From an uncultured virus (IMG/VR IMGVR_UViG_3300003873_000005) (lineage: Duplodnaviria; Heunggongvirae; Uroviricota; Caudoviricetes): a DNA stretch of 64,000 nt. Made by a program: the position numbers and the translations under genes. How positions within the stretch are numbered: position 1 is the first letter of the stretch; each line of letters starts with the position of its first letter. The DNA lies in IMG/VR virus record IMGVR_UViG_3300003873_000005, one strand, 5' to 3'. A model generated the notes under the pieces. It ran no database searches, had not been told where the DNA came from, and saw only the letters and a list, made by a program, of their open reading frames with translations. Shown here piece by piece: positions 5,976-21,817 of this stretch.

Positions 5976-6248
5976 GATATTTATGCACTTAAATATAAAA
6001 GATATACGCATAAAAAGGTCAAGCATAAGAGAGTGTTTAAGGGAACCTATAGACTTAGAGATAAAATAGGTACAATGGGTTTGGTTTATTGGGGTAAGGT
6101 AACCCGTAAAGGCACGCAAGCTATGACATGTATGCTGGAATGTCCAGAATGTAAAGAATTATTTAGGGATTATATGTGGAGAGCAGTAGATAATAAAATA
6201 TCTATGTGTAAAGATTGTAGGAATAAAAATGAAAAATATATTAGATAA
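5961..6248 (+). CDS. hypothetical zinc-ribbon protein
   Basis: CPEC...CKDC; ATG5961 follows GAGGA. Confidence 0.6.
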   Translation: MGLISDIYALKYKRYTHKKVKHKRVFKGTYRLRDKIGTMGLVYWGKVTRKGTQAMTCMLECPECKELFRDYMWRAVDNKISMCKDCRNKNEKYIR

Positions 6249-7112
6249 GAAGACAGGTAAGATAGTTCAAGCTTATGATTTTGGCGGACCGGATGTTATA
6301 AAAGTACAAGATATTTTTGTATATGGTGATAAACATCACAACATGACTAGTTATACAAAAACAGTAGATACTTTAACCTTAGAACCTATAGGTGAGTCTA
6401 TTAGTCTAGCCAAAGGTATCTGGGAGATAGTCTCACGTTCAAATATTAATACCTGTAACTATAGGATTACAATTAAAATAACTTTACTGGTGAGTTAAAA
6501 TCCGGGGTCTATCCATTTAATCTACATGGTAAGGTTTATCAGTTACCCTGTCCAGACGGCTCTGGTGCATGGGTCATGGCCAGCTGTGGTGGTTATTCTA
6601 TTGAGTCATCTTGGTTTGGTCAGCACAATGGAGAATGTTATAGACTAAAGGGTACTGGTGAGATATTAGGTTTTTTTGTACTTAAATGTAATCTAATATT
6701 ACACAGAGATGTCTATATTCCCGCCGGTGATTTATGGCCTAACGATCCAACTGAAAGGGTTAAAGCTCTATGGGCAGAAGTACGGTCCATGTCCATACCC
6801 ACAAATGCTCCAAACTATGTACCTAGTAACTTTAGTCTTAGTGTTTATACAAATAAATTAGGCGATATTTCTCCGTTGGGTTCAGGAACACCAAGTACTT
6901 GTAATTATTTTAAGCTCTATAAAACAAATTTACTAAATACATCTTTTTCAGGTGATCTATCAGATAATGCTAATAATAAATTTAATAATGGTTTTAGAGC
7001 TGTAGTTACTGGGGCCAAAACAAATATACACTTAAGTTTTAAAAATTATACCTGTGATGGTTATTCTGCATACCCAGAATACTCTATTAAGGCCAATATT
7101 ATGTTTAGTTAA
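6229..7112 (+). pseudogene. frameshifted paralog of 20047-20991 (constant N-domain plus variable C-domain)
   Basis: One extra A at 6475-6478 restores KNNFTGELKSGVYPFNLHGKVYQLPCPDG, matching KNSFTGEVKSGVYPFNLQGKVYQLPCPDG in the paralog. Confidence 0.85.
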
Positions 7113-7143
7113 AAAGTTCCATGTTAAATACTTTGTATATAAT
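7111..7143 (+). promoter_or_regulatory. promoter AAG-N13-ACTT-N4-TATAAT
   Basis: AAAAAG-13 nt-ACTT-tgta-TATAAT; same spacing as four other intergenic sites. Confidence 0.7.
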
Positions 7144-8126: not shown

Positions 8127-9185
8127 ATGATCGAAACATCTCCAAGAACTCCTTTACCGGTGTTAATACTTACTTTAGATGGTAATACTTACTTGTGGGA
8201 TGGCAATGAACATTTTTATAATGGCAATAAATCTTATTTAGACGGCAATACTGCTCTTTGGAAACCTCAACAGCTTAAATATCTAGATGGTAATAATACC
8301 TGGATAAAGCCTTATATAACACATTTAGAATCTAAATACTTAGAATATCAATATGAAAATAAATTTGTTGAAGCATTTAACTTTGCGCCTAGTTCAGATA
8401 AAATAGTAGCTTCTGAAAGCACTACTAATGACCCAAATTTTGTTATAGATGGATATAAAATTAGCTATAAGACATTACCAATAGACTTATCCAAAGATAT
8501 ACAGTATGTAAATAAGCCAGCAAAATATGGAACAGATGATTTAATAGTAGAAAAAGCAATTAATACAGACCTTATAGTCCTAAAAGCTAAAACTCACGGC
8601 TATTACGTTTGGACTACACAAGATAGCTTTGGTGATTTTAAAATTAACAATGGCTTATTACAGCAGCATATAGATCAAGCTGGTACAGATCATACATTTG
8701 TAAACTTGTTTCCAAAAAATAGACAATATAACTTGATATCTAGGACTCAAAAATTCTACGAGTCTAAAGGTGATTTAATAAGTAATTTTACTAAGACTAC
8801 TGCTGATAGACCATTAGACTTTATAAAAAAAGTTAAAAAAACTAAAATACCAGATATATTAGAAGTAGATAGATTAAAATCTAAGTCATTGACAAATAAA
8901 CTTAAAAGTTTAAATGACCTTTTTTTACAGGCTTGGCCATATAAAACAGTAAATCCTAATGAAATTATTCTAAAAGGCATACTAAAAGAACAATTAAGAT
9001 TATATATACTTTATGATGGACTATTTTATTGGAGTAACTTAAGTTTAGACACTCTTTTAGATAATAATCTTTATAAATATAAAATTGATCATAGGTCTTT
9101 AACTAGTATAAATCAAGTTAAAAACTATGGATCTAAATATATGGCTATAAAAGATTATGCGGTAAAAGGCAATATATTAATTTAA
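8127..9185 (+). CDS. hypothetical protein
   Basis: 352-aa ORF with four N-terminal (L/W)DGN repeats. Confidence 0.7.
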   Translation: MIETSPRTPLPVLILTLDGNTYLWDGNEHFYNGNKSYLDGNTALWKPQQLKYLDGNNTWIKPYITHLESKYLEYQYENKFVEAFNFAPSSDKIVASESTTNDPNFVIDGYKISYKTLPIDLSKDIQYVNKPAKYGTDDLIVEKAINTDLIVLKAKTHGYYVWTTQDSFGDFKINNGLLQQHIDQAGTDHTFVNLFPKNRQYNLISRTQKFYESKGDLISNFTKTTADRPLDFIKKVKKTKIPDILEVDRLKSKSLTNKLKSLNDLFLQAWPYKTVNPNEIILKGILKEQLRLYILYDGLFYWSNLSLDTLLDNNLYKYKIDHRSLTSINQVKNYGSKYMAIKDYAVKGNILI

Positions 9186-9213
9186 GCTTATAATAGTTTA
9201 CTTGTAATATAAT
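9181..9213 (+). promoter_or_regulatory. promoter AAG-N13-ACTT-N4-TATAAT
   Basis: TTTAAG-13 nt-ACTT-gtaa-TATAAT, then AAGGAG RBS. Confidence 0.75.
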
Positions 9214-10120: not shown

Positions 10121-10540
10121 ATGCAAAAAAGAGACAAAATGTACAGAGACTTAGCAGATGGCTTTGCTCAAATAGGCAAAGCCTTTAGTGCTATAAATGA
10201 CGATGTGGAAAATCCACCGGCGGCTAAAATTCTTGCCATACAAATCGCCGATAAAATGAATCTTGGTGATGCAGAACTTATTGAGTTAATTGGCTTTTTA
10301 CAATATTGCTCAGCTAATAAAGATTTTAGTATGCAAAAACTTGCAAAAGAGTTATCTGGTAAAGATAATAATGGGCAAGGTAGCAATGGACAAGATAACA
10401 ATGGACAAGATAACAATGGACAAGATAATAATGGACAAGAGAATAATGGACAAGAGAATAATGGACAAGATAATAATGGACAAGATAATAATGGAGAGCA
10501 AGAAGATTCAAAAATCAGTGAAAGTCCAGTAGAGGGCTGA
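10121..10540 (+). CDS. hypothetical protein with a GQDNN low-complexity tail
   Basis: AAGGA RBS; about nine 15-bp repeats at 10362-10495. Confidence 0.75.
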   Translation: MQKRDKMYRDLADGFAQIGKAFSAINDDVENPPAAKILAIQIADKMNLGDAELIELIGFLQYCSANKDFSMQKLAKELSGKDNNGQGSNGQDNNGQDNNGQDNNGQENNGQENNGQDNNGQDNNGEQEDSKISESPVEG

Positions 10541-10544
10541 TAAT

Positions 10545-10796
10545 TTGAATATATTTGAACTTTGTCCTAAAGGCTATACTAATGGCGAAAACTGTAAAAA
10601 ATTAATCTGTCATTACAAAGATACTTCAGGGCATTGTTCACTTATAAAAGCTACAGAAGATAGAGAATATTCAATAGAAGAAATAGCTACAATTTTACAA
10701 ATATCAAGACATCGAGTTTGGAGAATATATAACAATGTCTTGGATAAACTACGTAACGGAGTCTATAAAGATAGACTTAAAGAAACTAAAAAATAA
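10545..10796 (+). CDS. Cys-rich N-terminus plus sigma70 region-4.2-like HTH
   Basis: YSIEEIATILQISRHRVWRIYNNVLDKLR matches the pattern TLEEIG..L.VSRERVRQIE..AL.KLR; four Cys in the N-terminal part. Confidence 0.7.
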   Translation: MNIFELCPKGYTNGENCKKLICHYKDTSGHCSLIKATEDREYSIEEIATILQISRHRVWRIYNNVLDKLRNGVYKDRLKETKK

Positions 10797-10809
10797 CTTG
10801 TTTTATAAT
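10777..10809 (+). promoter_or_regulatory. promoter AAG-N13-ACTT-N4-TATAAT
   Basis: TTAAAG-13 nt-ACTT-gttt-TATAAT. Confidence 0.6.
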
Positions 10810-11112
10810 ATATCTACAAATGAATAAAATTTAAGAATTTAAATGTTTACAGGTATAAATAATACTATTAATAGTCAAAACACCAACTATAGCATTAATA
10901 TAATTTTAGAGTCATTACTTAAGAAAGTAAATGAGTATAAAAAATATAGATTATTTTTGACTGCAAATAAGCCTGAGGATTTTACAGGGATTTATTGTAC
11001 AAAAATATAAAAGTTTGTATATTTAGATGAAGTAGATAAAGCTGAGGTGTGTAAGTAGACAGCTAAAATTATTTGATAAAAATGCTATAAATATAGCAGT
11101 ATAGGATTAAAA

Positions 11113-11358
11113 ATGACAGAAAAAGATTTACATAGAGGCGAAGTTTATGATAGTATTAAAAATGGTTTGGTTATACTAAGAGACCAAGGAATATTTGATG
11201 GCATTTTTAGCTACCATTTCTTTTCTTTAGAATTTAATAGCCATTTATACTGGACAAGTAAACAGTTGCCAAGTAAACTAAAAAACTTTGAACTAGAAGC
11301 TCAGAGTAAAAAATCTTGGGTGCAAAAAAACAATTTCAGTAAAAAAATAGAGCTGTAA
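11113..11358 (+). CDS. hypothetical protein
   Basis: AGGA RBS. Confidence 0.55.
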   Translation: MTEKDLHRGEVYDSIKNGLVILRDQGIFDGIFSYHFFSLEFNSHLYWTSKQLPSKLKNFELEAQSKKSWVQKNNFSKKIEL

Positions 11359-11420
11359 AGCTCAAAATAAAAATCTTAGATGCAAAAACAATTATAGCAA
11401 AAATACAGAAAGGAGAAAAA

Positions 11421-11627
11421 ATGGTAGTGGTTAAAAGTAGTAATATACATAGTTTAGAGTATATACCTGAAGAAAAAGAATTAACAATTGAGTTTAACTC
11501 AGGAGGAGTTTATGTATATAGAAAAGTTCCTAAAGATGTCTATGATTCATTTCTTGAAGCGGATAGTAAGGGTAAATTCTTTTTTAAACATATAAAAAAG
11601 AATTATGATTTTGAAAGGTTACAATAG
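11421..11627 (+). CDS. KTSC domain protein
   Basis: VKSSNI.S..Y......L.IEF.SG.VY.Y..VP...Y..F..A.SKGKFF..HIK. Confidence 0.9.
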   Translation: MVVVKSSNIHSLEYIPEEKELTIEFNSGGVYVYRKVPKDVYDSFLEADSKGKFFFKHIKKNYDFERLQ

Positions 11628-11670
11628 ATATGAGAATAGAAAAGGTCTTTGCTCAAAGTAGAAAACCTCT

Positions 11671-11961
11671 ATGATTAAGTTATCTTTTATTGCTGACTTA
11701 ATTCCTGTAGATAATTTTTTGGGCTTAAAACATGCTAAAGAGTATGTAATACTTAAAAATGATATAGACATAGGACTCATAGAGGCTTATATAACACATA
11801 GTGAAATATATATCTTTAACGTTAAGCTTAAAGTTAAATTTCAAAAAAATGGCTATTTCCGTGATTGGCTACTATCACAGGATAAAAAAATTATAGCTCT
11901 TTGGCCTAAGCCAGAGATTATTAATTATTGGAAAGCCTTAGGGGCTACTTTAATTTTTTAA
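11671..11961 (+). CDS. possible GNAT-like acetyltransferase
   Basis: IYIFNV.....FQKNGY...YWKALG pattern. Confidence 0.4.
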   Translation: MIKLSFIADLIPVDNFLGLKHAKEYVILKNDIDIGLIEAYITHSEIYIFNVKLKVKFQKNGYFRDWLLSQDKKIIALWPKPEIINYWKALGATLIF

Positions 11962-11973
11962 AGGATTAAAAAA

Positions 11974-12957
11974 ATGAAATTAAAAATAAAACAAGAAATA
12001 CCAAAACAGTTTATAACTGATACTGAGTTTAAGTATGATTTTGCAAGGGCTAAAAAAGCAATATCTTTAGACATGCTAGATATATATGATAATGATACTA
12101 TAGCTGAAGAAAAATATGATGGTTCTAGGTATGGGGCTGTTATAACCGATGAGGTAAAGCTAGAGTCCAGAAATGGTATAGATAGAGCTGTAAATGTGCC
12201 ATATATTTGTAAAGCATTAAAAGAAATTTTTCCTAAAGATACAATATTAGATGGTGAAATTTGCCATGTATGGGCACCAAGAAATAAACGTTGGGAATTA
12301 TCTAGATCAGTTATGGGTACTAAAGGTTATAATCCAGAAGTTGAACCTGCGCAATATATTATTTATGATATTCAATATTTAGATGGAAAATGCCTTAAGG
12401 ACTTAGAGTTGACTACTCGTAGAGAAATACTAGCAAAAGCACTTTTAAAATTAAATGATAAATTTGAAAAACTTGAGACTACTTTAGCCACAAAAACTCT
12501 GTGTATACCAAGGCAATTTCCTATCAGCTATGCTAAACAGCTTTATTTAAGTATTTTATCTGATAAAGGTGAGGGTATAATGCTAAAAGCAAAAAAAGAA
12601 AAATATGCCAAATCTTGGACAAAGTTAAAAAAAGTTTTTTCTATAGATTGTTTCATTTCTGGAATAGAGAATGGTAAAGGTAAATACGCAGGTCAAATTG
12701 GTTCTTTAAAAATATCAGTATTTGATGAAAATAAATCTGCTGTTCAAATAGGCAAGTGCTCTGGCATGGATGATGCTAAAAGAAAAGAGTTTACACAGAT
12801 GACCATTAATGGTGAATTACTGCATAAAGTAATAGAAGTTAAAGCAAATGAAATAACTAAGAATTTAAAACTTAGACATCCAGTGTTTATTAGAGAACGC
12901 TATGATAGAACAATAGAAAGTTGCAATATATCTCAATTGAAGGAGCATTTAAAGTGA
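11974..12957 (+). CDS. ATP-dependent DNA ligase
   Basis: EEKYDGSR, ILDGEI, YIIYDI, EGIMLK, W.KLK, LRHPVF..R.D. Confidence 0.93.
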   Translation: MKLKIKQEIPKQFITDTEFKYDFARAKKAISLDMLDIYDNDTIAEEKYDGSRYGAVITDEVKLESRNGIDRAVNVPYICKALKEIFPKDTILDGEICHVWAPRNKRWELSRSVMGTKGYNPEVEPAQYIIYDIQYLDGKCLKDLELTTRREILAKALLKLNDKFEKLETTLATKTLCIPRQFPISYAKQLYLSILSDKGEGIMLKAKKEKYAKSWTKLKKVFSIDCFISGIENGKGKYAGQIGSLKISVFDENKSAVQIGKCSGMDDAKRKEFTQMTINGELLHKVIEVKANEITKNLKLRHPVFIRERYDRTIESCNISQLKEHLK

Positions 12958-13127
12958 TTAAATTTAAGAGACTACAATTTCTTAGTAGAAAAAATTGGTA
13001 TAGTAAACTAGGCAATAAAACTATAATAGATTTAAAGTTCTTTGCATTTACTAAAACGCCTAACAGTATTCAGTTTGGTGTAGTTTCTCTTTACCATACA
13101 TGGTACAGTATTTTTATTGCTTGGTAA
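12954..13127 (+). CDS. small hypothetical protein
   Basis: GTG start follows AAGGAG and overlaps the ligase stop. Confidence 0.5.
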   Translation: MIKFKRLQFLSRKNWYSKLGNKTIIDLKFFAFTKTPNSIQFGVVSLYHTWYSIFIAW

Positions 13128-13131
13128 ATAA

Positions 13132-13878
13132 ATGGCACAAATAGATTTACCAGCTTTGGTTATACCAGACGATAGAATAGTAACTAGTGATAATTATTAC
13201 TCTGGTTTAGACTATCCTGAAATGCCTTTTTTTCCTTTTTCTCCGGCAGATTTTAGGGCTAAAGATCTACCTATTAAATATGCACAAAATAGGTATGAAA
13301 TAGTTGGTTCTGGGCCTGAAGATAAAAAATGTAAGTCTCTTTGTTTTGATAATAAATATTGGGACTGCACTACTGGCCAGTGTAAAGAATATAGTAGTTA
13401 TAAAATAAGTACAGGTTCATCAAATCAGGTTAATAATGAATGGCTAGAGATAAATTATATTTATGCTGCTGGAGGTAGTCCAGTTAGTAAACAAGAAACA
13501 TTTTTTCAAAAAAACTATGGGCTAAGTAATTGGAATAGCAATATGGGAAGGACTAATTCAATAAGTATATCTAGAAGTAGTTTAAGTGCTCTGGCTAATT
13601 ATACAGAGATAAACCAGCCTAATTTCTGTTATAACTCATCAGGTTTAATTGGTTCTGGTTTTAAGGATTCTGAGTATATATACAGACTATTTTTGCCTAA
13701 GGCATTAGATTGTGGTATATTAATATATGATTGGGTTGTTTCAAATCTTTTTATAAGTTTATCTATGCTACCTGGTCTTAGTGATTCTGAAATAGAACAA
13801 AAAGAGTATTATTATGCTCATTGCTATATTGAAAATTTGGTTTTACACATCCCAGCAAAAATTACTTATATTAAATAA
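13132..13878 (+). CDS. hypothetical Cys-containing protein (possible adhesin-like)
   Basis: 248 aa; CKSLC..WDC..GQC cluster followed by a beta-rich domain. Confidence 0.6.
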   Translation: MAQIDLPALVIPDDRIVTSDNYYSGLDYPEMPFFPFSPADFRAKDLPIKYAQNRYEIVGSGPEDKKCKSLCFDNKYWDCTTGQCKEYSSYKISTGSSNQVNNEWLEINYIYAAGGSPVSKQETFFQKNYGLSNWNSNMGRTNSISISRSSLSALANYTEINQPNFCYNSSGLIGSGFKDSEYIYRLFLPKALDCGILIYDWVVSNLFISLSMLPGLSDSEIEQKEYYYAHCYIENLVLHIPAKITYIK

Positions 13879-13888
13879 ATAATACAGG

Positions 13889-13921
13889 TTTAAGTCTTAA
13901 TATCATTACTTGATATATAAT
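13889..13921 (+). promoter_or_regulatory. promoter AAG-N13-ACTT-N4-TATAAT
   Basis: TTTAAG-13 nt-ACTT-gata-TATAAT. Confidence 0.75.
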
Positions 13922-13956
13922 ATAAATCTAAACAAATTAACACAAAGGAGTTAGAA

Positions 13957-14460
13957 ATGAGTATGACCAAAACACAACTCATAGCAGCAGCAACAAAGTT
14001 AGGCTTAGAAATAGCCAGTAAAGAGACAAGGGATTCTCTTATTGAAAAGATTGCAAATTTCTATAACGAAACTGGCGATACTGAAGATTTAAAGGCATTT
14101 TTAGAGGACAATGGATTTACTCTTACAGAAGAGGGCGAAATAGTTAAAGCTAAAAAGCAAAAAAAACTTGGTGAAAATCCTAATACAAAGGCGTATCATA
14201 TTATAAAAGTATTGCAAGATGCAAGTCTGGCAAAGTTATCTTATAAAGAACTTAAAGCTTACTTGCTAGAAGCTGAAGGCATTGAAACTACTCCTGCAAG
14301 TATTGCTTGGTATGCAAATTGGATGAAACAAAAAGGCATGGATCCAATACCTAGAGTTAAAAAAGCAGTATCAAAAAAAGAAACTGTAGTTGAAGACGAA
14401 GGTAAAAATGAAAGTGATGAAAAAGTTGAGTATGAAGATGAAGATGGAGATGAAGATTAA
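13957..14460 (+). CDS. putative nucleic-acid-binding protein (HeH/Rho-N-like N-terminus, HTH, acidic tail)
   Basis: MTKTQLIAAATKLGL....TRDSLIEKI; C-terminal EDEDGDED. Confidence 0.55.
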   Translation: MSMTKTQLIAAATKLGLEIASKETRDSLIEKIANFYNETGDTEDLKAFLEDNGFTLTEEGEIVKAKKQKKLGENPNTKAYHIIKVLQDASLAKLSYKELKAYLLEAEGIETTPASIAWYANWMKQKGMDPIPRVKKAVSKKETVVEDEGKNESDEKVEYEDEDGDED

Positions 14461-14474
14461 AAAATAGTCTTCTT

Positions 14475-14510
14475 TAGGATAAGCTATTTATCTAGCTTAT
14501 CCTATTTTTT
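14475..14510 (+). terminator. Rho-independent terminator
   Basis: 12-bp stem TAGGATAAGCTA/TAGCTTATCCTA followed by T6. Confidence 0.85.
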
Positions 14511-14572
14511 ATTTAGTTGAATCCATTTCACTTCATTTCAATTGGATTCAATTAAACAAATAAAGGATTAAT

Positions 14573-15118
14573 GTGAAAAATATTTATAATAGACAAGTTA
14601 AGTTCCAAAAAGTCATGAAAACAAATTATGATATAATGTATTTAGCTTTAATTGAAGAACTTGGAGAACTTGTAGCAAGTTTTGGCTATTCAGATTGGAA
14701 ACAAACTGTTAGAGATGAAGATAACATAAGAATTGAAGCTATGGATATATGTATATTTGCAATTAATTGCCATTACTATTTAAATAGAAGATATTCAGCT
14801 ACACAAGGAGTATTAACTAATCTTATAATCTCTGATATACAGTTAATTAAACAAATTCAAACTTTAATAGCTAATGATAAATACTTAGAAATAGTGGCTT
14901 TAATCTTTGCAATTTATCCAGATGTAAAAACTAATATAATTGGTAAACAGGCTTTAAATACTTTTAGACAAGATAATGGGTATAAACTTGGAACATATAA
15001 AAAGCTTTGGAATGGCCAAGAAGATAATGTAACAATGCTAGAGTATGTAAAAAATAACCTAAACGCTACTTTTGAGGATATCTATACTTACTTATCTGAG
15101 ACTTACGCAAGTTTATAA
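14573..15118 (+). CDS. dut: dimeric (all-alpha) dUTPase, possibly also dCTPase
   Basis: EELGEL...WK...E..D..IF and KQALNTFRQDNGYK.GTY.K.WNG.EDN, the Campylobacter-type C-terminal motif. Confidence 0.85.
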   Translation: MKNIYNRQVKFQKVMKTNYDIMYLALIEELGELVASFGYSDWKQTVRDEDNIRIEAMDICIFAINCHYYLNRRYSATQGVLTNLIISDIQLIKQIQTLIANDKYLEIVALIFAIYPDVKTNIIGKQALNTFRQDNGYKLGTYKKLWNGQEDNVTMLEYVKNNLNATFEDIYTYLSETYASL

Positions 15119-15119
15119 A

Positions 15120-15356
15120 ATGTATACTATAGAAACTATAGAGATTTTAACTGGGTATTCTAAAAACACTATCTATAATTTAACTAGTTTAATAAGTATT
15201 AAGCCATTTAAAAATAGAATACCCGGCAATCCATCTAAAGGCACATATAATGAAAAGGCTTTAGAAGCTCTTTTGTATTATAAAAAGCTCACTCAAGAGC
15301 AGCAAATAAATAAGAAAGAAGCAGTAAAGATGGTATTAGATGCTAAAATATTATAA
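15120..15356 (+). CDS. HTH DNA-binding protein
   Basis: MYTIETIEILTGYSKNTIYNL. Confidence 0.6.
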   Translation: MYTIETIEILTGYSKNTIYNLTSLISIKPFKNRIPGNPSKGTYNEKALEALLYYKKLTQEQQINKKEAVKMVLDAKIL

Positions 15357-18018
15357 AGGCAATGGCAAAGCTCAATGGAAATTAGCTGATGAACATAATC
15401 CACCACCTAAAATGGTGTATGAAACAATTTTATCTTTAGATAGAAATCCAAATGACTTAGAATCTAGTTTGGATCAAAGTTATTGGGGTCCATTTTATAT
15501 AGACATTGATAATGAAGATTTCTCTATTGCTCATAGTGATACAAAAAAGATTTTAAGATACTTAGTTAATTCTTATAATCTAAATGTAGAGAATGACCTA
15601 CAAATATTTGTTTCTGGAAAAAAAGGGTTTCATATCTTACTTAATCCTTATATTTTTATGGATAGTAAGCCTAAAAAACAATTGGCTTACAGATATAAAC
15701 TAATGGCCGCTATGATACAAAAAAATATAAAAGTAGTATTAGACATGGTTGTTTACTCAGGTAAAAAAGGTAGAATGTGGAGAATACCAAATGTTATAAG
15801 AGCAGACAATGGAAAATATAAAATTCCTATAACCTATATGGAAGTTATTTCTGAAGATTCAAATTATTTAATTGATTCTTTATGTATACAACCAAGAACT
15901 GGGTTTAATTTTACTTGGAAGAGAGTTCAAAGAAATCCATTAGTTGTTTCTTGGTTTAAATCTTGTAATATTCCTATCCTAACTAATAAAATAGTTGTAG
16001 AAGAAGAAGATTTAAAAAACCAAGACATACCTGAAGGAATAGTTAAATTAGCTGCTTTAAAGGATATAAAACCAGATGCTAGATTTAACCTTTTAGTCTT
16101 AAATGCAGCTGTATATGGTGCTAGAGTGGGCTGGCCAGAAGATAAAGCCTTAAGATATTTTACTAAAACTTTAACTTATAGTTCTTCTGTATATAAAACT
16201 TATGAAGATAAAATAGACCATTTTAAAAATGTTTTTGGCTTTGTACTGGAAAATAAAGATTATAAATTTGATTGTCATTTTTTATCCACGGTTGTATCTG
16301 GAATAGACTGTAATAAGATAAAAGCCACTACCGAAGGTGCCGATGATTATGACGAGGATTTTGGAATATATATAAAGGATAATAATTATTATCTAAGTAC
16401 TGAAAATGGTCCTAGAAGATTGACTGGCTTTACTATGAAAATACTTCATGATGTTGAGTATGAAAATGGATCTGTAGGCTATGACGTAAGTTTAAAAAAT
16501 GCAAGAAATAGGAAAAAAAATATAGTAGTTCCAGAAAACAGCTTTGCAACTAAGAGTGGTTTTGCAAAGTTTTTATCTCCAGATTTTCCAATATTTTGCT
16601 CAGAAAAGGAGTTTGCCATGATAGGCTGGCATATAAGAAAAAATGAACCAAATGTACAGATTGGTAAAGATTTTATTGGTCTACACTATATAGACAAAAA
16701 GTGGCACTATGCAAATGCAGAGGGCTCTATATCTTTAGACGGTGATATAGACAGAGTAAAAGTAAATGCTAAGTCATTGACTATAGTTAACACTAATATA
16801 GATTATAACTGGCCTGAAGTAACTAAAGAACAATTATTAAAATCTGTTGAGCCTTTAACAAATTTTAATCAACCTCAAGTAGTAATTCCTATGCTTGGTT
16901 GGTTCTTTGGAAGTTTTTTCAAGCCTCATTATAACTTAGCCTTTAGTCAATTTCCATTATTATTTATTTTTGGGGAAGCGGGTGCTGGAAAAACTGCCAC
17001 TGGCTTAAAACTTAGAAGGCTATTTTCAATGGAGGATAAGGCTTTAAAATCTATAACAGATGTTACACAATTTAGTCTTATGGCAGCTTGTAATAGTTCT
17101 AACTTAATTCCATTAATCTTAGATGAATATAAACCAATGATGATGAAAGAAACTCAAACACACTTAGTATCTAGACTTATCAGAGGTGCATATAACGCCT
17201 CTAGAGGTGAAAGAGGAACCGCTAGTCAAGAAATAATACCTTATTACTATAGAGCTCCAATTGTATTACTTGGAGAGCAGTCTATAATAGAAACAGCTGT
17301 ACAACATAGAGTTATAGAAGTTCAATTATCTAGGCAGTATATACAAGATGGGAAATACACTAAAAATTTTAATACTATTGATGATTTAGACCTAGAAGCT
17401 ATTGGTAAAGGCTTTTTAACATTAGCTATGTCAATAAATCCCAAAGAAATTAAGATTAAGACTAATAAGAATATAAAAGATCTAGGTGAAAGGCTAAGAT
17501 TACCAGAAAGACCTTTATTTAATGTTGCAGTAGTTCGAACTTGTTTAGAATACCTAATAGAATATTATGATCAGCATGGAGTAGACATAGAAAATATAAT
17601 TAACAGCTTATTTAAAGATTATTTAGCATATATAAGCGTAGGTAATGGGGTGTTAGATAGCATAGCTAGTAAAAATGATATTATAAAAATAATTGAGACC
17701 TTTAATCAAATGGCTGATTTTAATGCAAGTCCTATGCCAATAACTAATAATATACATTATGCTAGTAGAAAGGGAAATATACATCTTAATATTCAAGCTA
17801 TTTATCCTTTATTTTCTAAATATAATAAAGATTATAACCTTGGTATATTTGATCCCGGCTATGTTAGCTTCTTAAAAATGTTACAAAAAGAGCCTTTTTG
17901 TTTAGAGATAACTAATAGTACTGAGGTTAGTAAAGTTAAAAATCTCACAGTCACACTAAGTATTAGTGAGCTAGAAAAAAGAGACATACAAGTAAGTAGA
18001 TTAAAAGGTTTAGACTAA
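15340..18018 (+). CDS. primase-helicase (AEP primase plus C-terminal P-loop ATPase)
   Basis: FYIDID, SGKKGFHI, R.WRIPN; Walker A GEAGAGKT, Walker B LILDEY. Confidence 0.88.
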   Translation: MLKYYKGNGKAQWKLADEHNPPPKMVYETILSLDRNPNDLESSLDQSYWGPFYIDIDNEDFSIAHSDTKKILRYLVNSYNLNVENDLQIFVSGKKGFHILLNPYIFMDSKPKKQLAYRYKLMAAMIQKNIKVVLDMVVYSGKKGRMWRIPNVIRADNGKYKIPITYMEVISEDSNYLIDSLCIQPRTGFNFTWKRVQRNPLVVSWFKSCNIPILTNKIVVEEEDLKNQDIPEGIVKLAALKDIKPDARFNLLVLNAAVYGARVGWPEDKALRYFTKTLTYSSSVYKTYEDKIDHFKNVFGFVLENKDYKFDCHFLSTVVSGIDCNKIKATTEGADDYDEDFGIYIKDNNYYLSTENGPRRLTGFTMKILHDVEYENGSVGYDVSLKNARNRKKNIVVPENSFATKSGFAKFLSPDFPIFCSEKEFAMIGWHIRKNEPNVQIGKDFIGLHYIDKKWHYANAEGSISLDGDIDRVKVNAKSLTIVNTNIDYNWPEVTKEQLLKSVEPLTNFNQPQVVIPMLGWFFGSFFKPHYNLAFSQFPLLFIFGEAGAGKTATGLKLRRLFSMEDKALKSITDVTQFSLMAACNSSNLIPLILDEYKPMMMKETQTHLVSRLIRGAYNASRGERGTASQEIIPYYYRAPIVLLGEQSIIETAVQHRVIEVQLSRQYIQDGKYTKNFNTIDDLDLEAIGKGFLTLAMSINPKEIKIKTNKNIKDLGERLRLPERPLFNVAVVRTCLEYLIEYYDQHGVDIENIINSLFKDYLAYISVGNGVLDSIASKNDIIKIIETFNQMADFNASPMPITNNIHYASRKGNIHLNIQAIYPLFSKYNKDYNLGIFDPGYVSFLKMLQKEPFCLEITNSTEVSKVKNLTVTLSISELEKRDIQVSRLKGLD

Positions 18019-19463
18019 TGGCTACTTTAAAACTCACACCTTTTGATTATCAACTAGAAGATGCAAAATTCATACTCTCAGATAAGCGCGTAGGTATTTT
18101 ACATGAACCTGGAGTTGGTAAAACATTCGGAGTGCTTATAGCTGCTGTATATTTAGCTGAAAAGAAAAATATACAAACTTTAGTAGTTGTTCCTCCTATA
18201 TTAATAGAGGAATGGCTAGACAAAGCCAATGCCTATTTTAATCATAGATTAAATATTGTTACTTATCAAGGAACTCCTAAAGTAAGAAAAGCTTATAATC
18301 TGGCAAAGGCTGATATCGTAATTTGTTCCTATAACATATTAATGAGAGAAGGTTATAACTGTAAAAATAGTATCTATTCTAGAATGCCTAGATTAAATTT
18401 TTTAGTAGCAGATGAAACTAAATTCATTAAAAACCCTAAATCAAAAGCCTTTAAAACTTTTCAGTCTATAAAACATAGAACAGATTATGTAGCTTTAATG
18501 AATGGTACTCCAGTAGTTAAAAATCCAGGAGATTTATTTGTTATAATTCAGCTAATAAATCCTAATAGGTATGTTACACAGAAAAATTTTATGCATCATC
18601 ATGCTATATATTCAAAAAATACTGAGGGTTTTCCTATTGTTATTGGGTGGAAAAATTTAGATGATATCAAGAGCTTTTTAAACTATAGTTGTAGAAGGCT
18701 GTTAAAAAAAGATGTTCTTGATTTACCGCCTAAGCAACTTATTATTAAACAATTTTCACTGGAGCAGAAACATTATGATAGACTAAAAACTTATTGGGAT
18801 ACTGGTTTAATAGAACTAACTAATAATGGTATAGACTTAGTAAATAGGCCAACTGAAGTTATTTTTGACCAAGCAATGTCTTTAGCTATGAAAGTAAGAC
18901 AAGCTTTATTTGACCCTAGTATTTTAGGTTTAGATACAGAGTCTGTATATTTCGAACATTTAGAATTACTAATAGATAGTTTAGGAGATGAGCAATTAAT
19001 AATATTTACTCATTTTCAAAATACACTGGCTTTAGTTAAAAAATTGCTGGACAAAAAAGGCCTATCCTACGGTGAAATACACGGTAAAATAACTAGACCA
19101 GTTAAAGAAAAGGCTAAAAAAGACTTTAAATCAGGAAAAGTCCAACTACTTATTGGTAATCCAAAAAGTATGGGTGTAGGCTTAGATTTTCAAAATTGTC
19201 ATAATATGGCCTTCTTTGAATTGGACTATGAAGTGGATTCTTTTTGGCAAGGCCAAGATAGGTTACATAGACCAGGACAATTACATAGTGTAAATTACTA
19301 TGTATTTATAGCTAAAAAGACTATAGCTGTCGATTTAATGAAGTCAATAATGACAAATGCTAATTTTGTAAAGAAGTTACTCAATAAAGAGTCTAGTTCT
19401 GAATTTTTTAATTCTAGTATAACTGAAGATGAGGTAAAAATATGGCAAAACAAAATGAATTAG
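18018..19463 (+). CDS. SNF2-family helicase
   Basis: GVGKT, ADE...IKN, GTPV, GVGLDFQ, QDRLHRPGQ. Confidence 0.92.
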   Translation: MATLKLTPFDYQLEDAKFILSDKRVGILHEPGVGKTFGVLIAAVYLAEKKNIQTLVVVPPILIEEWLDKANAYFNHRLNIVTYQGTPKVRKAYNLAKADIVICSYNILMREGYNCKNSIYSRMPRLNFLVADETKFIKNPKSKAFKTFQSIKHRTDYVALMNGTPVVKNPGDLFVIIQLINPNRYVTQKNFMHHHAIYSKNTEGFPIVIGWKNLDDIKSFLNYSCRRLLKKDVLDLPPKQLIIKQFSLEQKHYDRLKTYWDTGLIELTNNGIDLVNRPTEVIFDQAMSLAMKVRQALFDPSILGLDTESVYFEHLELLIDSLGDEQLIIFTHFQNTLALVKKLLDKKGLSYGEIHGKITRPVKEKAKKDFKSGKVQLLIGNPKSMGVGLDFQNCHNMAFFELDYEVDSFWQGQDRLHRPGQLHSVNYYVFIAKKTIAVDLMKSIMTNANFVKKLLNKESSSEFFNSSITEDEVKIWQNKMN

Positions 19464-20038
19464 ATAAAATAGAAATAGTAGCACCAGATATTTTAGTTAC
19501 AACTCACCTATATATAGCGACCTACCTAGCTCGTAAATATTCAAGAAGCAGTGCACCCTTTGATGATTTATACCAAGAAGGTTGTATAGGTCTAATAAAA
19601 GCTAGTACTAAATTTGATCCCTCTAAAGGATTTAAATTTTCTACTTATGCTACTTGGTGGGTAAAGCAAGCAATATTTAGTAGTCTAACCTCTAGTACTA
19701 GAACAATACGTTTGCCTAGTCATATAGTACAATTAAAATTAAAACTATTTAAATATAGTGAGTATTATATAAATGAGTTTGGAAAAGAACCAAGTGTAAA
19801 AATACTGGCCGAGCATCTAGAAATACCTATTGAAAAGGTAGTCAAGTTAAAGAATTTACAACTAGAAGTAGACCTTGAAGACTTTGAGACATTTATAACT
19901 TCTAAGGATGAAACAGCCTTAGATCTATTAGAACAAGAAGAAGATAGAAAAGATATAATAGCCAGCTTAAGTAATCTTACTATAAAAGAAAAAGTAGTTA
20001 TAGGTTTACAGTATGGAATACTGAGTAAAATTAAATAG
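19442..20038 (+). CDS. sigma70-like factor (regions 2-3 and 4.1; lacks 4.2 HTH)
   Basis: DLYQEGCIGLIKA..KFDPSKGFKFSTYATWWVKQAI...RTIRLP; ends LTIKEKVVIGLQYGILSKIK*. Confidence 0.9.
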   Translation: MAKQNELDKIEIVAPDILVTTHLYIATYLARKYSRSSAPFDDLYQEGCIGLIKASTKFDPSKGFKFSTYATWWVKQAIFSSLTSSTRTIRLPSHIVQLKLKLFKYSEYYINEFGKEPSVKILAEHLEIPIEKVVKLKNLQLEVDLEDFETFITSKDETALDLLEQEEDRKDIIASLSNLTIKEKVVIGLQYGILSKIK

Positions 20039-20046
20039 GAAATAAA

Positions 20047-20991
20047 ATGAAAAAAGTATTAGATAAAAAAACAGGTGAAATAGTTCATGCTTATGACTTT
20101 GGTGGATCAGATATTGTAAAAGTACCAGGTACGCCGCCAATTTTAGTTTGGGCTGATAAAAGTCAGGAAATAACTAGCTATATTAGGACATATGAATCTT
20201 TAAGTCTAATCCCCTCTGAAGAGTCCATTGAAATAGACAAACCTACTTGGGAAATAGTTTCACATCAAGATATTTCTACCTGTAATTGGAGAGTCACGGT
20301 TAAAAATAGTTTTACTGGAGAAGTAAAATCTGGAGTATATCCTTTTAATCTACAGGGCAAGGTTTATCAACTGCCATGTCCAGATGGCAATGGTCCATGG
20401 GTAATTGCTAGCTGTGGAGGATATAAAATAAAAACAGGTACAGATCCCATATGCTATATTTTAGAGGGTACTGGAGAAACTATATGTAAGCTTAATATAA
20501 GTTATCCATCTAATAATCCATTAGTTTTAACATTTTATATGTCTCATGTAGAACCTGGGCCTGATTCAGGATACATAGAATTAGTCCATGAGGATGGTTG
20601 GTTACCCTATCATTTACTAGATAAATCATACTATCCGAGGGTTTCCACGTCACTTAATCTACCATTTTCTGAACTAGAGGACCAATCACCACCTTATCAT
20701 TGGAAATCTGAGGGGTTTGATAAATTTTGGGAAAAATGCGGTGGTCCGGTTTATCGCGAATGGATTGGTATAACTGGTTCTGGTAAGTCATTTACACTTT
20801 GTTTTTTAACAACTGGTAATCTTGACACTTCTAATTATATATATGGCATACGAAAACAAATCTCTATTTCTATACCGGATTTCAGCCCATTAAATCCATG
20901 GGATTATAAAACAGTATCGAAGTTAGACTATGACCCAGTAAGATTAGGCTATCTAGTTAGATTAGCGCGTATTTGGGGAGAAAATCATTAG
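20047..20991 (+). CDS. hypothetical protein, paralog of 6229-7112
   Basis: About 145-aa shared N-terminal domain; unrelated C-terminus. Confidence 0.8.
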   Translation: MKKVLDKKTGEIVHAYDFGGSDIVKVPGTPPILVWADKSQEITSYIRTYESLSLIPSEESIEIDKPTWEIVSHQDISTCNWRVTVKNSFTGEVKSGVYPFNLQGKVYQLPCPDGNGPWVIASCGGYKIKTGTDPICYILEGTGETICKLNISYPSNNPLVLTFYMSHVEPGPDSGYIELVHEDGWLPYHLLDKSYYPRVSTSLNLPFSELEDQSPPYHWKSEGFDKFWEKCGGPVYREWIGITGSGKSFTLCFLTTGNLDTSNYIYGIRKQISISIPDFSPLNPWDYKTVSKLDYDPVRLGYLVRLARIWGENH

Positions 20992-21041: not shown

Positions 21042-21074
21042 TTAAAGTATCACTAATAATACTTAGTATATAAT
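21042..21074 (+). promoter_or_regulatory. promoter AAG-N13-ACTT-N4-TATAAT
   Basis: TTAAAG-13 nt-ACTT-agta-TATAAT. Confidence 0.75.
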
Positions 21075-21175: not shown

Positions 21176-21817
21176 ATGGCAAAAACAAAAATAGAAGACA
21201 TGGACTTAGAATCTAAAAAAACAACAAAAACAGACACATCAGTGGTAGACGTAGAGGTGACAGGCAATACAGGAATGGCTGTAAGAGGGACAAATCCATC
21301 TGTATTAGCTAACTTAAATCAAGGCTTTGAAGGTATTGAATCAATTGCAAATTTTATGCCTTACTTTATAGTAGATGGTACAGAGTTGTTAAATAAGATA
21401 ACTGAAGCATCATATAAAAATATAGAAGTTGTTATTACTGGTGGCAAGCCCGTTTGGCAATTATGGAATTTAGACCAAACTTTAGTAGCTGAGAGTTTTG
21501 ATGGCACAGTTTCTACTGAAGGTCAAAATATGCAAGAAGCATTGGCTGAAACAAAAGCTAAATACCCAGGTCAAGAAGAAAAGATTAAGATTCAAGCTAG
21601 ATATGATATTTATTTTGATTGGGATTATCCAGAAGAAGGCACTAAGCTTACAAAAGTATCTTTAAGTCCTTCAAGTAAATATGCTTTTAGTGCTTATTCT
21701 CAAGAATTGGCTAAACAAGGCCTTGGAGTTACCCAAGTAACTACTTCTCTTGGTGCAAAAAGAACTGTGTCTAAACAAGGTTATAGATATAGTGTTGTAA
21801 CTTTTGAAAGAGCCTAA
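21176..21817 (+). CDS. putative ssDNA-binding / replication protein
   Basis: Located in the replication module; beta-rich with LSPSS...F..Y. Function inferred from context. Confidence 0.45.
   Translation: MAKTKIEDMDLESKKTTKTDTSVVDVEVTGNTGMAVRGTNPSVLANLNQGFEGIESIANFMPYFIVDGTELLNKITEASYKNIEVVITGGKPVWQLWNLDQTLVAESFDGTVSTEGQNMQEALAETKAKYPGQEEKIKIQARYDIYFDWDYPEEGTKLTKVSLSPSSKYAFSAYSQELAKQGLGVTQVTTSLGAKRTVSKQGYRYSVVTFERA

What the first reader, a model, noticed from the sequence alone, without database searches (positions are those of the whole stretch)
10545..20038. Possible split sigma factor: sigma ends just before region 4.2, and a separate ORF 9 kb away carries a 4.2-like HTH
Seen: ORF 19442-20038 has intact RpoD-like regions 2-3 and stops at LTIKEKVVIGLQYGILSKIK*. 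The next gene starts 8 nt later, so there is no frameshifted remnant. ORF 10545-10796 reads four Cys then DREYSIEEIATILQISRHRVWRIYNNVLDKLR. Known: RpoD continues from LT.RE..VLR.RFGI into HTLEEVG..F.VTRERIRQIE.KALRKLR, the -35-binding HTH. T4 late transcription likewise uses a truncated sigma (gp55) with a separate coactivator. Inference: the two ORFs are complementary and may act as a two-part sigma, or the small protein may be a sigma-4 mimic that redirects host RNA polymerase. Region 2.4 is also altered (KQAIFSS versus RQAITRS).
Basis: partly seen in the sequence, partly recalled or inferred. Interest (0 to 1): 0.75.

Follow-up and report, generated by a model that had tools for sequence, protein, structure and literature searches.

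The report
Phage sigma split inside domain 4
A family of uncultured long-tailed phages encodes a sigma factor that stops just before its -35-reading helix and, 9 kb away, a small four-cysteine protein that carries that helix, so the two likely work as one two-piece promoter reader at a phage-enriched promoter motif, though no experiment has tested this.

Summary
Observation confirmed. The sigma (19442-20038) holds regions 2.1-4.1 and stops after RpoD G564; 21 of 22 family proteins stop 5-7 residues after that motif. The 83-aa ORF (10545-10796) is the genome's only sigma-4.2 match. On the RpoD model the sigma covers positions 3-193 and the small protein 193-235. All 5 complete or near-complete family genomes carry both genes and no full-length sigma; two of them were found from the small-protein side. 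New here: these genomes share a promoter-like motif, AAG-N14-CTT-N4-TATAAT (28 of 75 intergenic TATAAT sites, against 1 of 227 in ten Campylobacterota genomes). It places a fixed non-TTGACA element where region 4.2 binds. Complex prediction gave weak support (0.53, best control 0.01). Against: stand-alone sigma-4 proteins occur in viruses with no sigma-2 match (29 of 31 records, mostly fragments), and AAG resembles the Campylobacter -35 box. Best reading (0.55): a two-subunit sigma cut between 4.1 and 4.2, unlike SigO-RsoA, Sig7-8 or gp55/gp33. This scan noted similar splits before in at least seven jumbo-phage genomes; I found no paper on it.

The parts
19442..20038 (+). Truncated RpoD-like sigma factor: regions 2.1-3 plus helices H1-H2 of domain 4 (region 4.1); no region 1, shortened 3.2 finger, no 4.2 HTH
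   Evidence: Pfam r2 E 9e-20; TIGR02393 profile positions 3-193 of 238; alignments; AF2 model with helices at 160-176 and 181-191
19970..20035 (+). Conserved 4.1 tail (aa 177-198): keeps equivalents of R554, E555, F563, G564 and I565, plus family-specific G188 and L194
   Evidence: Column conservation of aa 177-194 is 0.69, against 0.45 in the preceding linker and 0.75 in region 2; residue table
10545..10796 (+). Stand-alone 83-aa protein: N-terminal Cys4 module (predicted metal-binding) plus a sigma-70 region 4.2 helix-turn-helix
   Evidence: Pfam r4 28.2 bits; TIGR02393 positions 193-235; C7, C17, C22, C31, S54, R55, R57, W59 and R60 invariant in 26 of 26 homologues; HTH pLDDT 84-91, Cys part about 50 or lower
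9184..9213 (+). Promoter-like motif AAG-N14-CTT-N4-TATAAT at the head of the gene run that contains the small gene
   Evidence: a site precedes the homologous gene in G002, G003 and G022
13892..13921 (+). Same motif at the head of the gene run dUTPase - primase - helicase - sigma
   Evidence: a site precedes the homologous gene in all 5 genomes
10780..10809 (+). Same motif overlapping the 3' end of the small gene
21045..21074 (+). Same motif before the gene at 21176; in the four relatives it lies directly behind the sigma stop codon
   Evidence: present in all 5 genomes
7114..7143 (+). Same motif before ORF 7192
15340..19463 (+). Context: primase-like gene (15340-18018) and SNF2-type helicase (18018-19463), which overlaps the sigma start; the helicase-sigma order holds in all 5 genomes
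14573..15118 (+). Context: dimeric dUTPase resembling those of Campylobacterota (host hint)
   Evidence: NCBIfam dUTPaseEpsil E 1.7e-20, under its cut-off; DNA matches of up to 83% over about 100 nt in Campylobacterota genomes

Best explanation
The phage encodes a sigma factor that stops after region 4.1 and a separate Cys4 protein that carries region 4.2, and the two likely assemble on host RNA polymerase as one two-subunit sigma that would read the phage's AAG-N14-CTT-N4-TATAAT motif. Shown: the conserved truncation point, the homology of the small protein to region 4.2, their complementarity on the RpoD model, co-occurrence in 5 of 5 family genomes, and the motif with its fixed spacing. Inferred: the large subunit binds core and opens the TATAAT -10 box (region 2.3 largely kept, Q437 kept). 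Its altered region 3.0 (E458 lost, lysine or arginine at I460) would read the CTT at -19..-17. Its kept H1-H2 tail would sit on the beta-flap and pack against helices H3-H4 of the small subunit. The changed recognition helix of the small subunit (E585 to H/Q, R588 to W, Q589 to R) would read AAG at -36..-34. The Cys4 module is predicted to bind zinc and to stabilise the cut domain. Both genes lie downstream of motif sites, so a positive feedback loop for replication-side (middle) genes is likely, primed by read-through or by host sigma at the perfect -10 box.
For: (1) 21 of 22 family sigmas end 5-7 aa after the F563-G564 motif; the sigmas of G022 and G023, found later, end at the same place. 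(2) TIGR02393: sigma covers 3-193, small protein 193-235. (3) G000, G002, G003, G022 and G023 (CheckV 100%; sigma identity 35-67%) each have the truncated sigma and one r4 match in a stand-alone ORF; one r2 match each in the four relatives. G022 and G023 came from the small-protein search. (4) Motif: AAG exactly 21 nt before TATAAT in 33 of 75 intergenic sites against 21 of 712 other TATAAT sites; CTT 39 of 75 against 18 of 712; TTG at canonical spacing 1-2 of 75. Both elements in 28 of 75 phage sites against 1 of 227 Campylobacterota sites (Fisher p 3e-18). The relaxed motif occurs 46 times against a mean of 6.6 in 20 shuffles; 45 lie on the early/replication strand and 42 are intergenic. (5) The 4.1 tail keeps basic residues at R554 (K/R in 18 of 18) and mostly at R562 (K 16, Q 2); both are listed as -35 contacts in PMC4943231. 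(6) Complex prediction: weak support, score 0.53 against a best control of 0.01. That mark was reached by 116 of 157 solved and 2 of 215 mismatched pairs; at 0.60 or under by 18 of 157 solved and both mismatches. Runs agree in at least 81% of contacts, partner pLDDT at least 65. A split domain may pass from memory of sigma-4 structures.
Against: (1) Stand-alone sigma-4 ORFs are common in viruses (36 of 117 motif-bearing frames). 29 of 31 such records searched have no Sigma70_r2 match; most are fragments, but only 1 of the 5 records at least 90% complete has one. G152 (47 kb, 100% complete) encodes a Cys-rich protein that aligns weakly from C31 onward (hhalign probability 12%) and has no sigma-2 match with two models. 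(2) The five genomes are one lineage, so co-occurrence may be shared inheritance; no relative lacking either gene was found. (3) The genes are 9 kb apart and not coupled. (4) The Campylobacter jejuni -35 consensus contains AAGT (PMC3824568), T at -17/-18 is a general sigma-70 preference (PMC3130263), and host sites show a slight AAG excess at 21 nt (12 of 227 against 31 of 1291, p 0.03). (5) G023 has nearly the same recognition helix as G022 but uses GTG/GAG one base further upstream (0 of 9 sites with AAG at 21). (6) The kept tail also holds core-binding residues (E555, F563, I565; PMC4943231), which alone could explain its conservation. (7) The motif was derived from the genomes it was counted in, and was widened after G023 was seen.
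Confidence: 0.55

Rival explanations
1. The truncated sigma works alone as a -10/extended -10 reader (gp55-like), and the small protein is an autonomous sigma-4-type DNA-binding regulator (LtrA-like) whose Cys4 module replaces helices H1-H2; it may act at these or at other promoters without binding the sigma tail.
For: Stand-alone Sigma70_r4 phage activators are published (LtrA family, PMC3753634). Cys-rich stand-alone 4.2 proteins occur in records without a sigma-2 match. Of the 30 ESM Atlas hits, 29 carry r4 as their only listed family; the rows shown are small and 93-100% viral. Other truncated phage sigmas (L017, L022, L025, L075) have no small partner gene beside them, in incomplete records. 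The motif offers TATAAT plus CTT, two elements that could suffice.
Against: A fixed-distance element at -36..-34 is tightly linked to CTT (34 of 43 sites with CTY carry RAG, against 4 of 32 without) and lies where region 4.2 binds. The cut is exactly complementary. The tail keeps -35 contact residues. LtrA-type proteins act on terS/late promoters, whereas here the motif lies on the replication strand.
Confidence: 0.27
2. The motif sites are optimised promoters for the host's own sigma-70 (likely a Campylobacterota host). The phage sigma, with or without the small protein, serves other promoters such as late ones, or the small protein blocks host sigma-4 at the beta-flap.
For: Host hint from the dUTPase. 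C. jejuni -35 consensus with AAGT. General preference for T at -17/-18. Perfect TATAAT in 46 of 46 sites, and TG at -15/-14 in 10 of 16 G022 sites. Both genes lie downstream of motif sites and need a first round of transcription.
Against: Both elements together in 1 of 227 host sites, and 0-6 exact copies per genome in 121 Campylobacterota genomes of 1.3-2.9 Mb, against 4-10 in four phage genomes of 75-96 kb. No taxon enrichment was visible among the 122 GTDB matches returned. TG is absent in 21 of 21 G000 sites. By eye I saw no shared motif upstream of structural genes. The first genes after the divergence point in G000 lack the motif. The true host is unknown, so this control may have missed it.
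Confidence: 0.15
3. The sigma is a decayed or mis-assembled gene and the small ORF an unrelated HTH.
For: One cluster (P0021) ends earlier, and one 96%-identical small protein (P0005) loses the reading frame inside the recognition helix.
Against: The same stop position at 35-67% identity, a conserved tail, an identical independent contig and an invariant recognition helix in 26 of 26.
Confidence: 0.03

Closest known systems
B. subtilis SigO-RsoA (YvrI-YvrHa) two-subunit sigma
   Same: Sigma-2 and sigma-4 functions on two polypeptides that act together (PMC8103513, passages read)
   Different: There the cut lies between domains 2 and 4. Here an RpoD-like protein keeps regions 2, 3 and 4.1, only 4.2 is separate and carries a Cys4 module, and the genes are 9 kb apart.
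Tn916 Sig7-Sig8 split sigma
   Same: Mobile-element two-subunit sigma that transcribes its own genes from a promoter needing both (bioRxiv 10.64898/2026.10.01.756105, passages read)
   Different: Sig7 resembles region 4 and Sig8 resembles RsoA; association with RNA polymerase was shown there and is not shown here.
T4 gp55 + gp33 (+ gp45 clamp)
   Same: Phage sigma lacking a -35 reader plus a separately encoded partner, described as a split sigma (PMC2988020, passages read)
   Different: gp33 has no sequence homology to sigma and does not bind DNA sequence-specifically, and the system serves late genes. Here the partner is a region-4.2 homologue, the motif has an upstream element, and it precedes replication-side genes.
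LtrA family (Sigma70_r4) phage late activators
   Same: Small stand-alone phage proteins similar to sigma region 4 (PMC3753634, passages read)
   Different: LtrA proteins activate terS/late operons of phages of Gram-positive hosts; the passages I read mention no truncated sigma partner and no Cys4 module.
T4 AsiA/MotA sigma appropriation
   Same: Middle promoters with a good -10 box and a phage-specific upstream element (PMC2988021, passages read)
   Different: T4 remodels host sigma-70 region 4; here the phage encodes its own sigma. I ran no dedicated search for AsiA or MotA homologues; none appeared among the proteins scanned.
Unpublished notes of this scan on jumbo phages (e1-5511131, e1-5791885, e1-8129400 and others)
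   Same: RpoD-like sigma cut after region 4.1 with a separate HTH protein; e1-8129400 names a zinc-finger protein carrying the helix
   Different: Those are giant phages, mostly with an adjacent partner gene. This is a 74-96 kb siphovirus lineage with no sequence look-alike in the scan index.

Membership tests
sigma-70 family (large subunit) | Region 2 with core-binding and -10 melting residues | tested here: met
   PF04542 70.7 bits against a cut-off of 24; Y430, W433, W434 and Q437 kept in the window protein
sigma-70 family (large subunit) | Region 4.2 HTH in the same polypeptide | tested here: not met
   No r4 hit in the ORF; it stops after G564
Group 1 (RpoD) sigma | Regions 1.1/1.2 and a full 3.2 finger | tested here: not met
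   The ORF starts at region 2.1; the finger is about 11 aa shorter
Two-subunit (split) sigma factors | Sigma-2 and -35-reading functions on separate genes of one element | tested here: met
   5 of 5 genomes; complementary profile ranges
Two-subunit (split) sigma factors | Both subunits associate with RNA polymerase or with each other | tested here: inconclusive
   Prediction only: weak support, 0.53 against 0.01; core not modelled
Two-subunit (split) sigma factors | Both subunits required for transcription from a cognate promoter | not testable with these tools
   Candidate motif found; needs in vitro transcription
SigO-RsoA / Sig7-Sig8 type | Cut between domain 2 and a whole domain 4 | tested here: not met
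   The cut lies between 4.1 and 4.2
T4 gp55/gp33 type | Partner without homology to sigma | tested here: not met
   The partner is a region-4.2 homologue
LtrA (Sigma70_r4) activators | Small stand-alone Sigma70_r4 protein | tested here: met
LtrA (Sigma70_r4) activators | Activates the terS/late operon | not testable with these tools
   No shared late motif seen by eye; sequence membership in LtrA was not tested
Cys4 zinc-binding module | Four invariant cysteines folded around zinc | tested here: inconclusive
   Invariant in 26 of 26; the model of this part has pLDDT about 50 or lower

The most novel reading that the evidence does not exclude
A sigma factor whose domain 4 is itself a heterodimer: helices H1-H2 on an RpoD-derived subunit and the -35 helix-turn-helix on a separately transcribed, zinc-capped microprotein that snaps in and sets a new -35 code (AAG at -36..-34). 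With the jumbo-phage cases noted elsewhere in this scan, phages would have cut sigma at this same seam more than once, making the -35 reader an exchangeable module.
Probability: 0.5. Interest if true: 0.8.

Novelty: new variant of a known kind. Interest (0 to 1): 0.64.

Why it matters
The published split sigmas I read about divide between domains 2 and 4, or use a non-homologous mimic. A split inside domain 4 would show that the -35 reading head can be supplied in trans as an 80-residue module. That gives a phage a two-gene AND gate on replication-side transcription and suggests a compact, swappable -35 specificity part for orthogonal expression. The case is directly testable, because two small proteins and 46 natural candidate promoter sites are in hand.

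Tried and rejected
Frameshift or read-through remnant behind the sigma stop: none. Full-length relatives or prophages in GTDB: only generic sigmas up to 43% identity; a primase profile found no relative. GenBank phages: no close relative of either protein. The metagenome scan was lost to generic RpoD patterns (1 of 64 parts scanned), so co-occurrence on metagenome contigs is untested. The profile search over 1.84 billion representatives was not available, so distant homologues of the Cys4 module are unsurveyed. Host by CRISPR spacer: 20 kb of the window against 401 Campylobacterota genomes scored only 2 candidates per genome; the matches listed were dUTPase and sigma DNA, so no conclusion. A putative lytic transglycosylase query found no GTDB relative. 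Late-promoter motif: none seen by eye. The strict 15-base motif in viral contigs gave single matches in the 80 rows listed, uninformative. RNA: no RNA holder listed. Of 80 loci from the sigma-profile viral scan, 9 outside the family also carry sigmas cut after 4.1; their neighbours did not match my 4.2 or small-family profiles, and all nine records are at most 54% complete, so I did not count them either way. L002/G001 begins 777 nt upstream of the sigma and cannot hold the small gene, so it was left out of the 5 of 5 count. The two records with a stand-alone 4.2 and a sigma-2 (G147, G150) carry divergent sigmas in frames of about 250 aa and were not informative. Foldseek gave no match at E <= 0.001. 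Literature searches found no paper on a phage sigma cut between 4.1 and 4.2; the library lacks most subscription journals, and I read no supplements.
Full report
Setting. The window is the first 64 kb of an 82,015-bp, 30% GC virus contig that CheckV rates 100% complete. It is a long-tailed phage: replication genes lie on the + strand, and portal, capsid, tail and a 3,896-aa tape measure on the - strand. I saw no RNA polymerase gene among the proteins scanned, so host core enzyme is presumed. The host is unknown. The dUTPase points to Campylobacterota, which is a hint only.

Observation. The sigma matches Sigma70_r2 strongly, r3 weakly and r4 not at all; the small ORF matches Sigma70_r4 above the cut-off. 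On the RpoD C-terminal model TIGR02393 the sigma covers positions 3-193 and the small protein 193-235 of 238. Aligned to an enterobacterial RpoD from locus L056, the sigma ends a few residues after G564, that is after helix H2 and before the H3-turn-H4 motif (helix naming from the figure legend in PMC2988021, passages read). The small ORF is the only r4 match in six frames of the genome.

The truncation is a family trait. A protein search returned 21 further clusters of 156-194 aa at 41-67% identity with no r4 annotation, ahead of ordinary full-length sigmas. Counting the query, 21 of 22 end 5-7 residues after the F563-G564 motif; P0021 ends earlier. The tail is conserved at 0.69 per column, against 0.45 for the linker before it. 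It keeps K/R at R554, E/D at E555, K or Q at R562, Y/F at F563 and an aliphatic residue at I565. PMC4943231 (passage read) lists R554 and R562 as -35 contacts and E555, R562, F563 and I565 as core contacts, so either role could explain the conservation.

The small protein. A profile search gave 28 clusters; I aligned 26, leaving out the frameshifted P0005 and the 55-aa P0149. Four cysteines and the helix residues S54, R55, R57, W59 and R60 are invariant. Against sigma-70, R584 and R586 are kept, E585 is Q (20) or H (6), R588 is W and Q589 is R. R584, E585 and Q589 are the base-reading residues named in PMC3130263, and E585Q and R588H relax -33 specificity according to PMC2613000 (passages read). 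A changed -35 preference is therefore predicted. Six of 7 PDB sequence matches are SigA/RpoD, and all Foldseek rows shown are sigma chains or sigma-containing complexes; all are individually non-significant. The AF2 model is confident for the HTH only. Zinc binding is inferred from the cysteines.

Co-occurrence. From the sigma side I found G002 and G003; from the small-protein side G022 and G023. Each has exactly one r2 match, in a truncated frame, and one r4 match, in a stand-alone ORF 9-14 kb upstream on the same strand. With the window's genome this is 5 of 5, at 35-67% sigma identity. This is one lineage, so it does not prove coupling.

Promoter motif. Anchoring on intergenic TATAAT sites upstream of genes in the five genomes (75 sites, against 712 other TATAAT sites) revealed AAG ending exactly 21 nt upstream (33 versus 21) and CTT ending 4 nt upstream (39 versus 18). 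TTG at canonical spacing occurred once or twice. With TATAAT numbered -12..-7 by convention (no start site was mapped), these elements are at -36..-34 and -19..-17. A pattern widened to admit G023 has 46 matches against a shuffle mean of 6.6; 45 lie on the early/replication strand and 42 are intergenic, several before homologous genes. In the window the intergenic sites are 7114, 9184, 10780, 13892 and 21045. Two of them head the gene runs that contain the small gene and the sigma. The motif was defined on these same genomes, so these counts are not an independent test.

Is it a host promoter? C. jejuni's -35 consensus contains AAGT (PMC3824568, passages read) and sigma-70 prefers T at -17/-18 (PMC3130263), so I tested this. 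In about 1.15 Mb from ten Campylobacterota genomes, two of them labelled Arcobacteraceae and Sulfurovum, both elements occurred in 1 of 227 sites against 28 of 75 in the phages. AAG alone was slightly enriched in host sites (12 of 227 against 31 of 1291, p 0.03). In 121 genomes of the phylum, 88 had a match, with at most 6 per genome. The motif is therefore phage-enriched by a wide margin. Strong promoters tuned for an unsampled host cannot be excluded.

Do the proteins touch? One complex prediction (sigma aa 140-198, the small protein, zinc) gave weak support: 0.53 against a best control of 0.01. The mark was reached by 116 of 157 solved and 2 of 215 mismatched pairs, and at 0.60 or under by 18 solved pairs and both mismatches. 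Runs agreed in at least 81% of contacts and partner pLDDT was at least 65. Halves of a known domain can pass from memory.

Results against. A scan of viral contigs for the canonical 4.2 motif (120 loci from 8 of 64 parts) gave 117 frames, 36 of them closed and short upstream of the motif. I searched 31 of those 36 records and 29 had no r2 match; only 1 of the 5 near-complete ones did. G152, 100% complete, has a Cys-rich 4.2 protein and no sigma-2 match with two models. Such proteins can thus probably work without a phage sigma, as published LtrA activators do (PMC3753634, passages read). G023 shifts and changes the upstream element although its recognition helix is almost that of G022. The two genes are not adjacent.

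Mechanism. Shown: truncation, homology, complementarity, co-occurrence, motif. Inferred: assembly on core, with the large subunit reading TATAAT and CTT, the small subunit docking on H1-H2 and reading AAG, and self-reinforcing expression of replication-side genes. I give this 0.55; an autonomous sigma-4 regulator beside a -10-only sigma 0.27; host-read promoters 0.15; decay 0.03.

Comparison and novelty. It would work like SigO-RsoA (PMC8103513) and Tn916 Sig7-8 (bioRxiv 10.64898/2026.10.01.756105), but it fails their cut-site feature. It differs from T4 gp55/gp33, whose partner has no sigma homology (PMC2988020). SPO1 gp33/gp34 I know only from the Tn916 preprint's discussion. For all papers I read search passages, not whole texts or supplements; PMC9429907, PMC3417554, PMC13123087 and PMC11217687 added little or nothing. 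Searches found no description of a phage sigma cut between 4.1 and 4.2. This scan's unchecked notes report the same seam in at least seven jumbo-phage genomes, and I saw nine loci with such truncated sigmas myself. The theme is recurrent, while this lineage, its distant Cys4 partner and its motif are not in the index by sequence. Verdict: real, a new variant of two-subunit sigma factors if the pairing holds; interest 0.64.

Noticed in passing
G000:C1 about 66900-70690 (outside the window); G002 upstream of 71127, 71653, 72084, 73605, 74887: A repeated inverted-repeat element (CTGGT...ACCAG) directly before the ribosome-binding sites of the first early genes; G003, G022 and G023 have a different repeat at comparable places.
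   Followed up: partly
G000:C1 about 66230-66320, and the divergence point in G002, G003, G022, G023: A conserved non-coding block of about 80 nt between the early genes and the packaging genes in all five genomes, preceded in G000 and G002 by repeats; a candidate genome end or packaging site.
   Followed up: no
P0005 (cluster on a 16.4-kb contig): A 96%-identical copy of the small protein that loses its frame inside the recognition helix; assembly error or natural null.
   Followed up: no
L018, L020, L021, L032, L050; L017, L025; L022, L075: Phage sigmas outside this family, with region 1.2, also stop just after the 4.1 RFG/YG motif; L018, L020, L032 and L050 have an adjacent basic 90-102-aa gene, L017, L022, L025 and L075 do not.
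   Followed up: partly
window 13132-13878 and 20047-20991; also 6229-7112: Variable, Cys/Gly-rich ORFs with shared N-terminal segments sit at different places among relatives (several per genome in L001 and L004), apparently mobile cassettes; the one behind the sigma stop is absent at that place in relatives.
   Followed up: no
window 10121-10540: The gene directly upstream of the small ORF is syntenic in G002 and G003 and abuts or overlaps it; it carries a low-complexity repeat here. A possible further partner.
   Followed up: no
window 15072-15356: A small conserved ORF between dUTPase and primase (PHROG 25262, unknown function; HTH-like by eye), present in G002 and G003.
   Followed up: no
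L003 10560-10600 (G003:C1 52405 on the opposite strand in G003): In the four relatives a motif site lies directly behind the sigma stop; in G003 one site also faces the opposite way across the same spacer.
   Followed up: no
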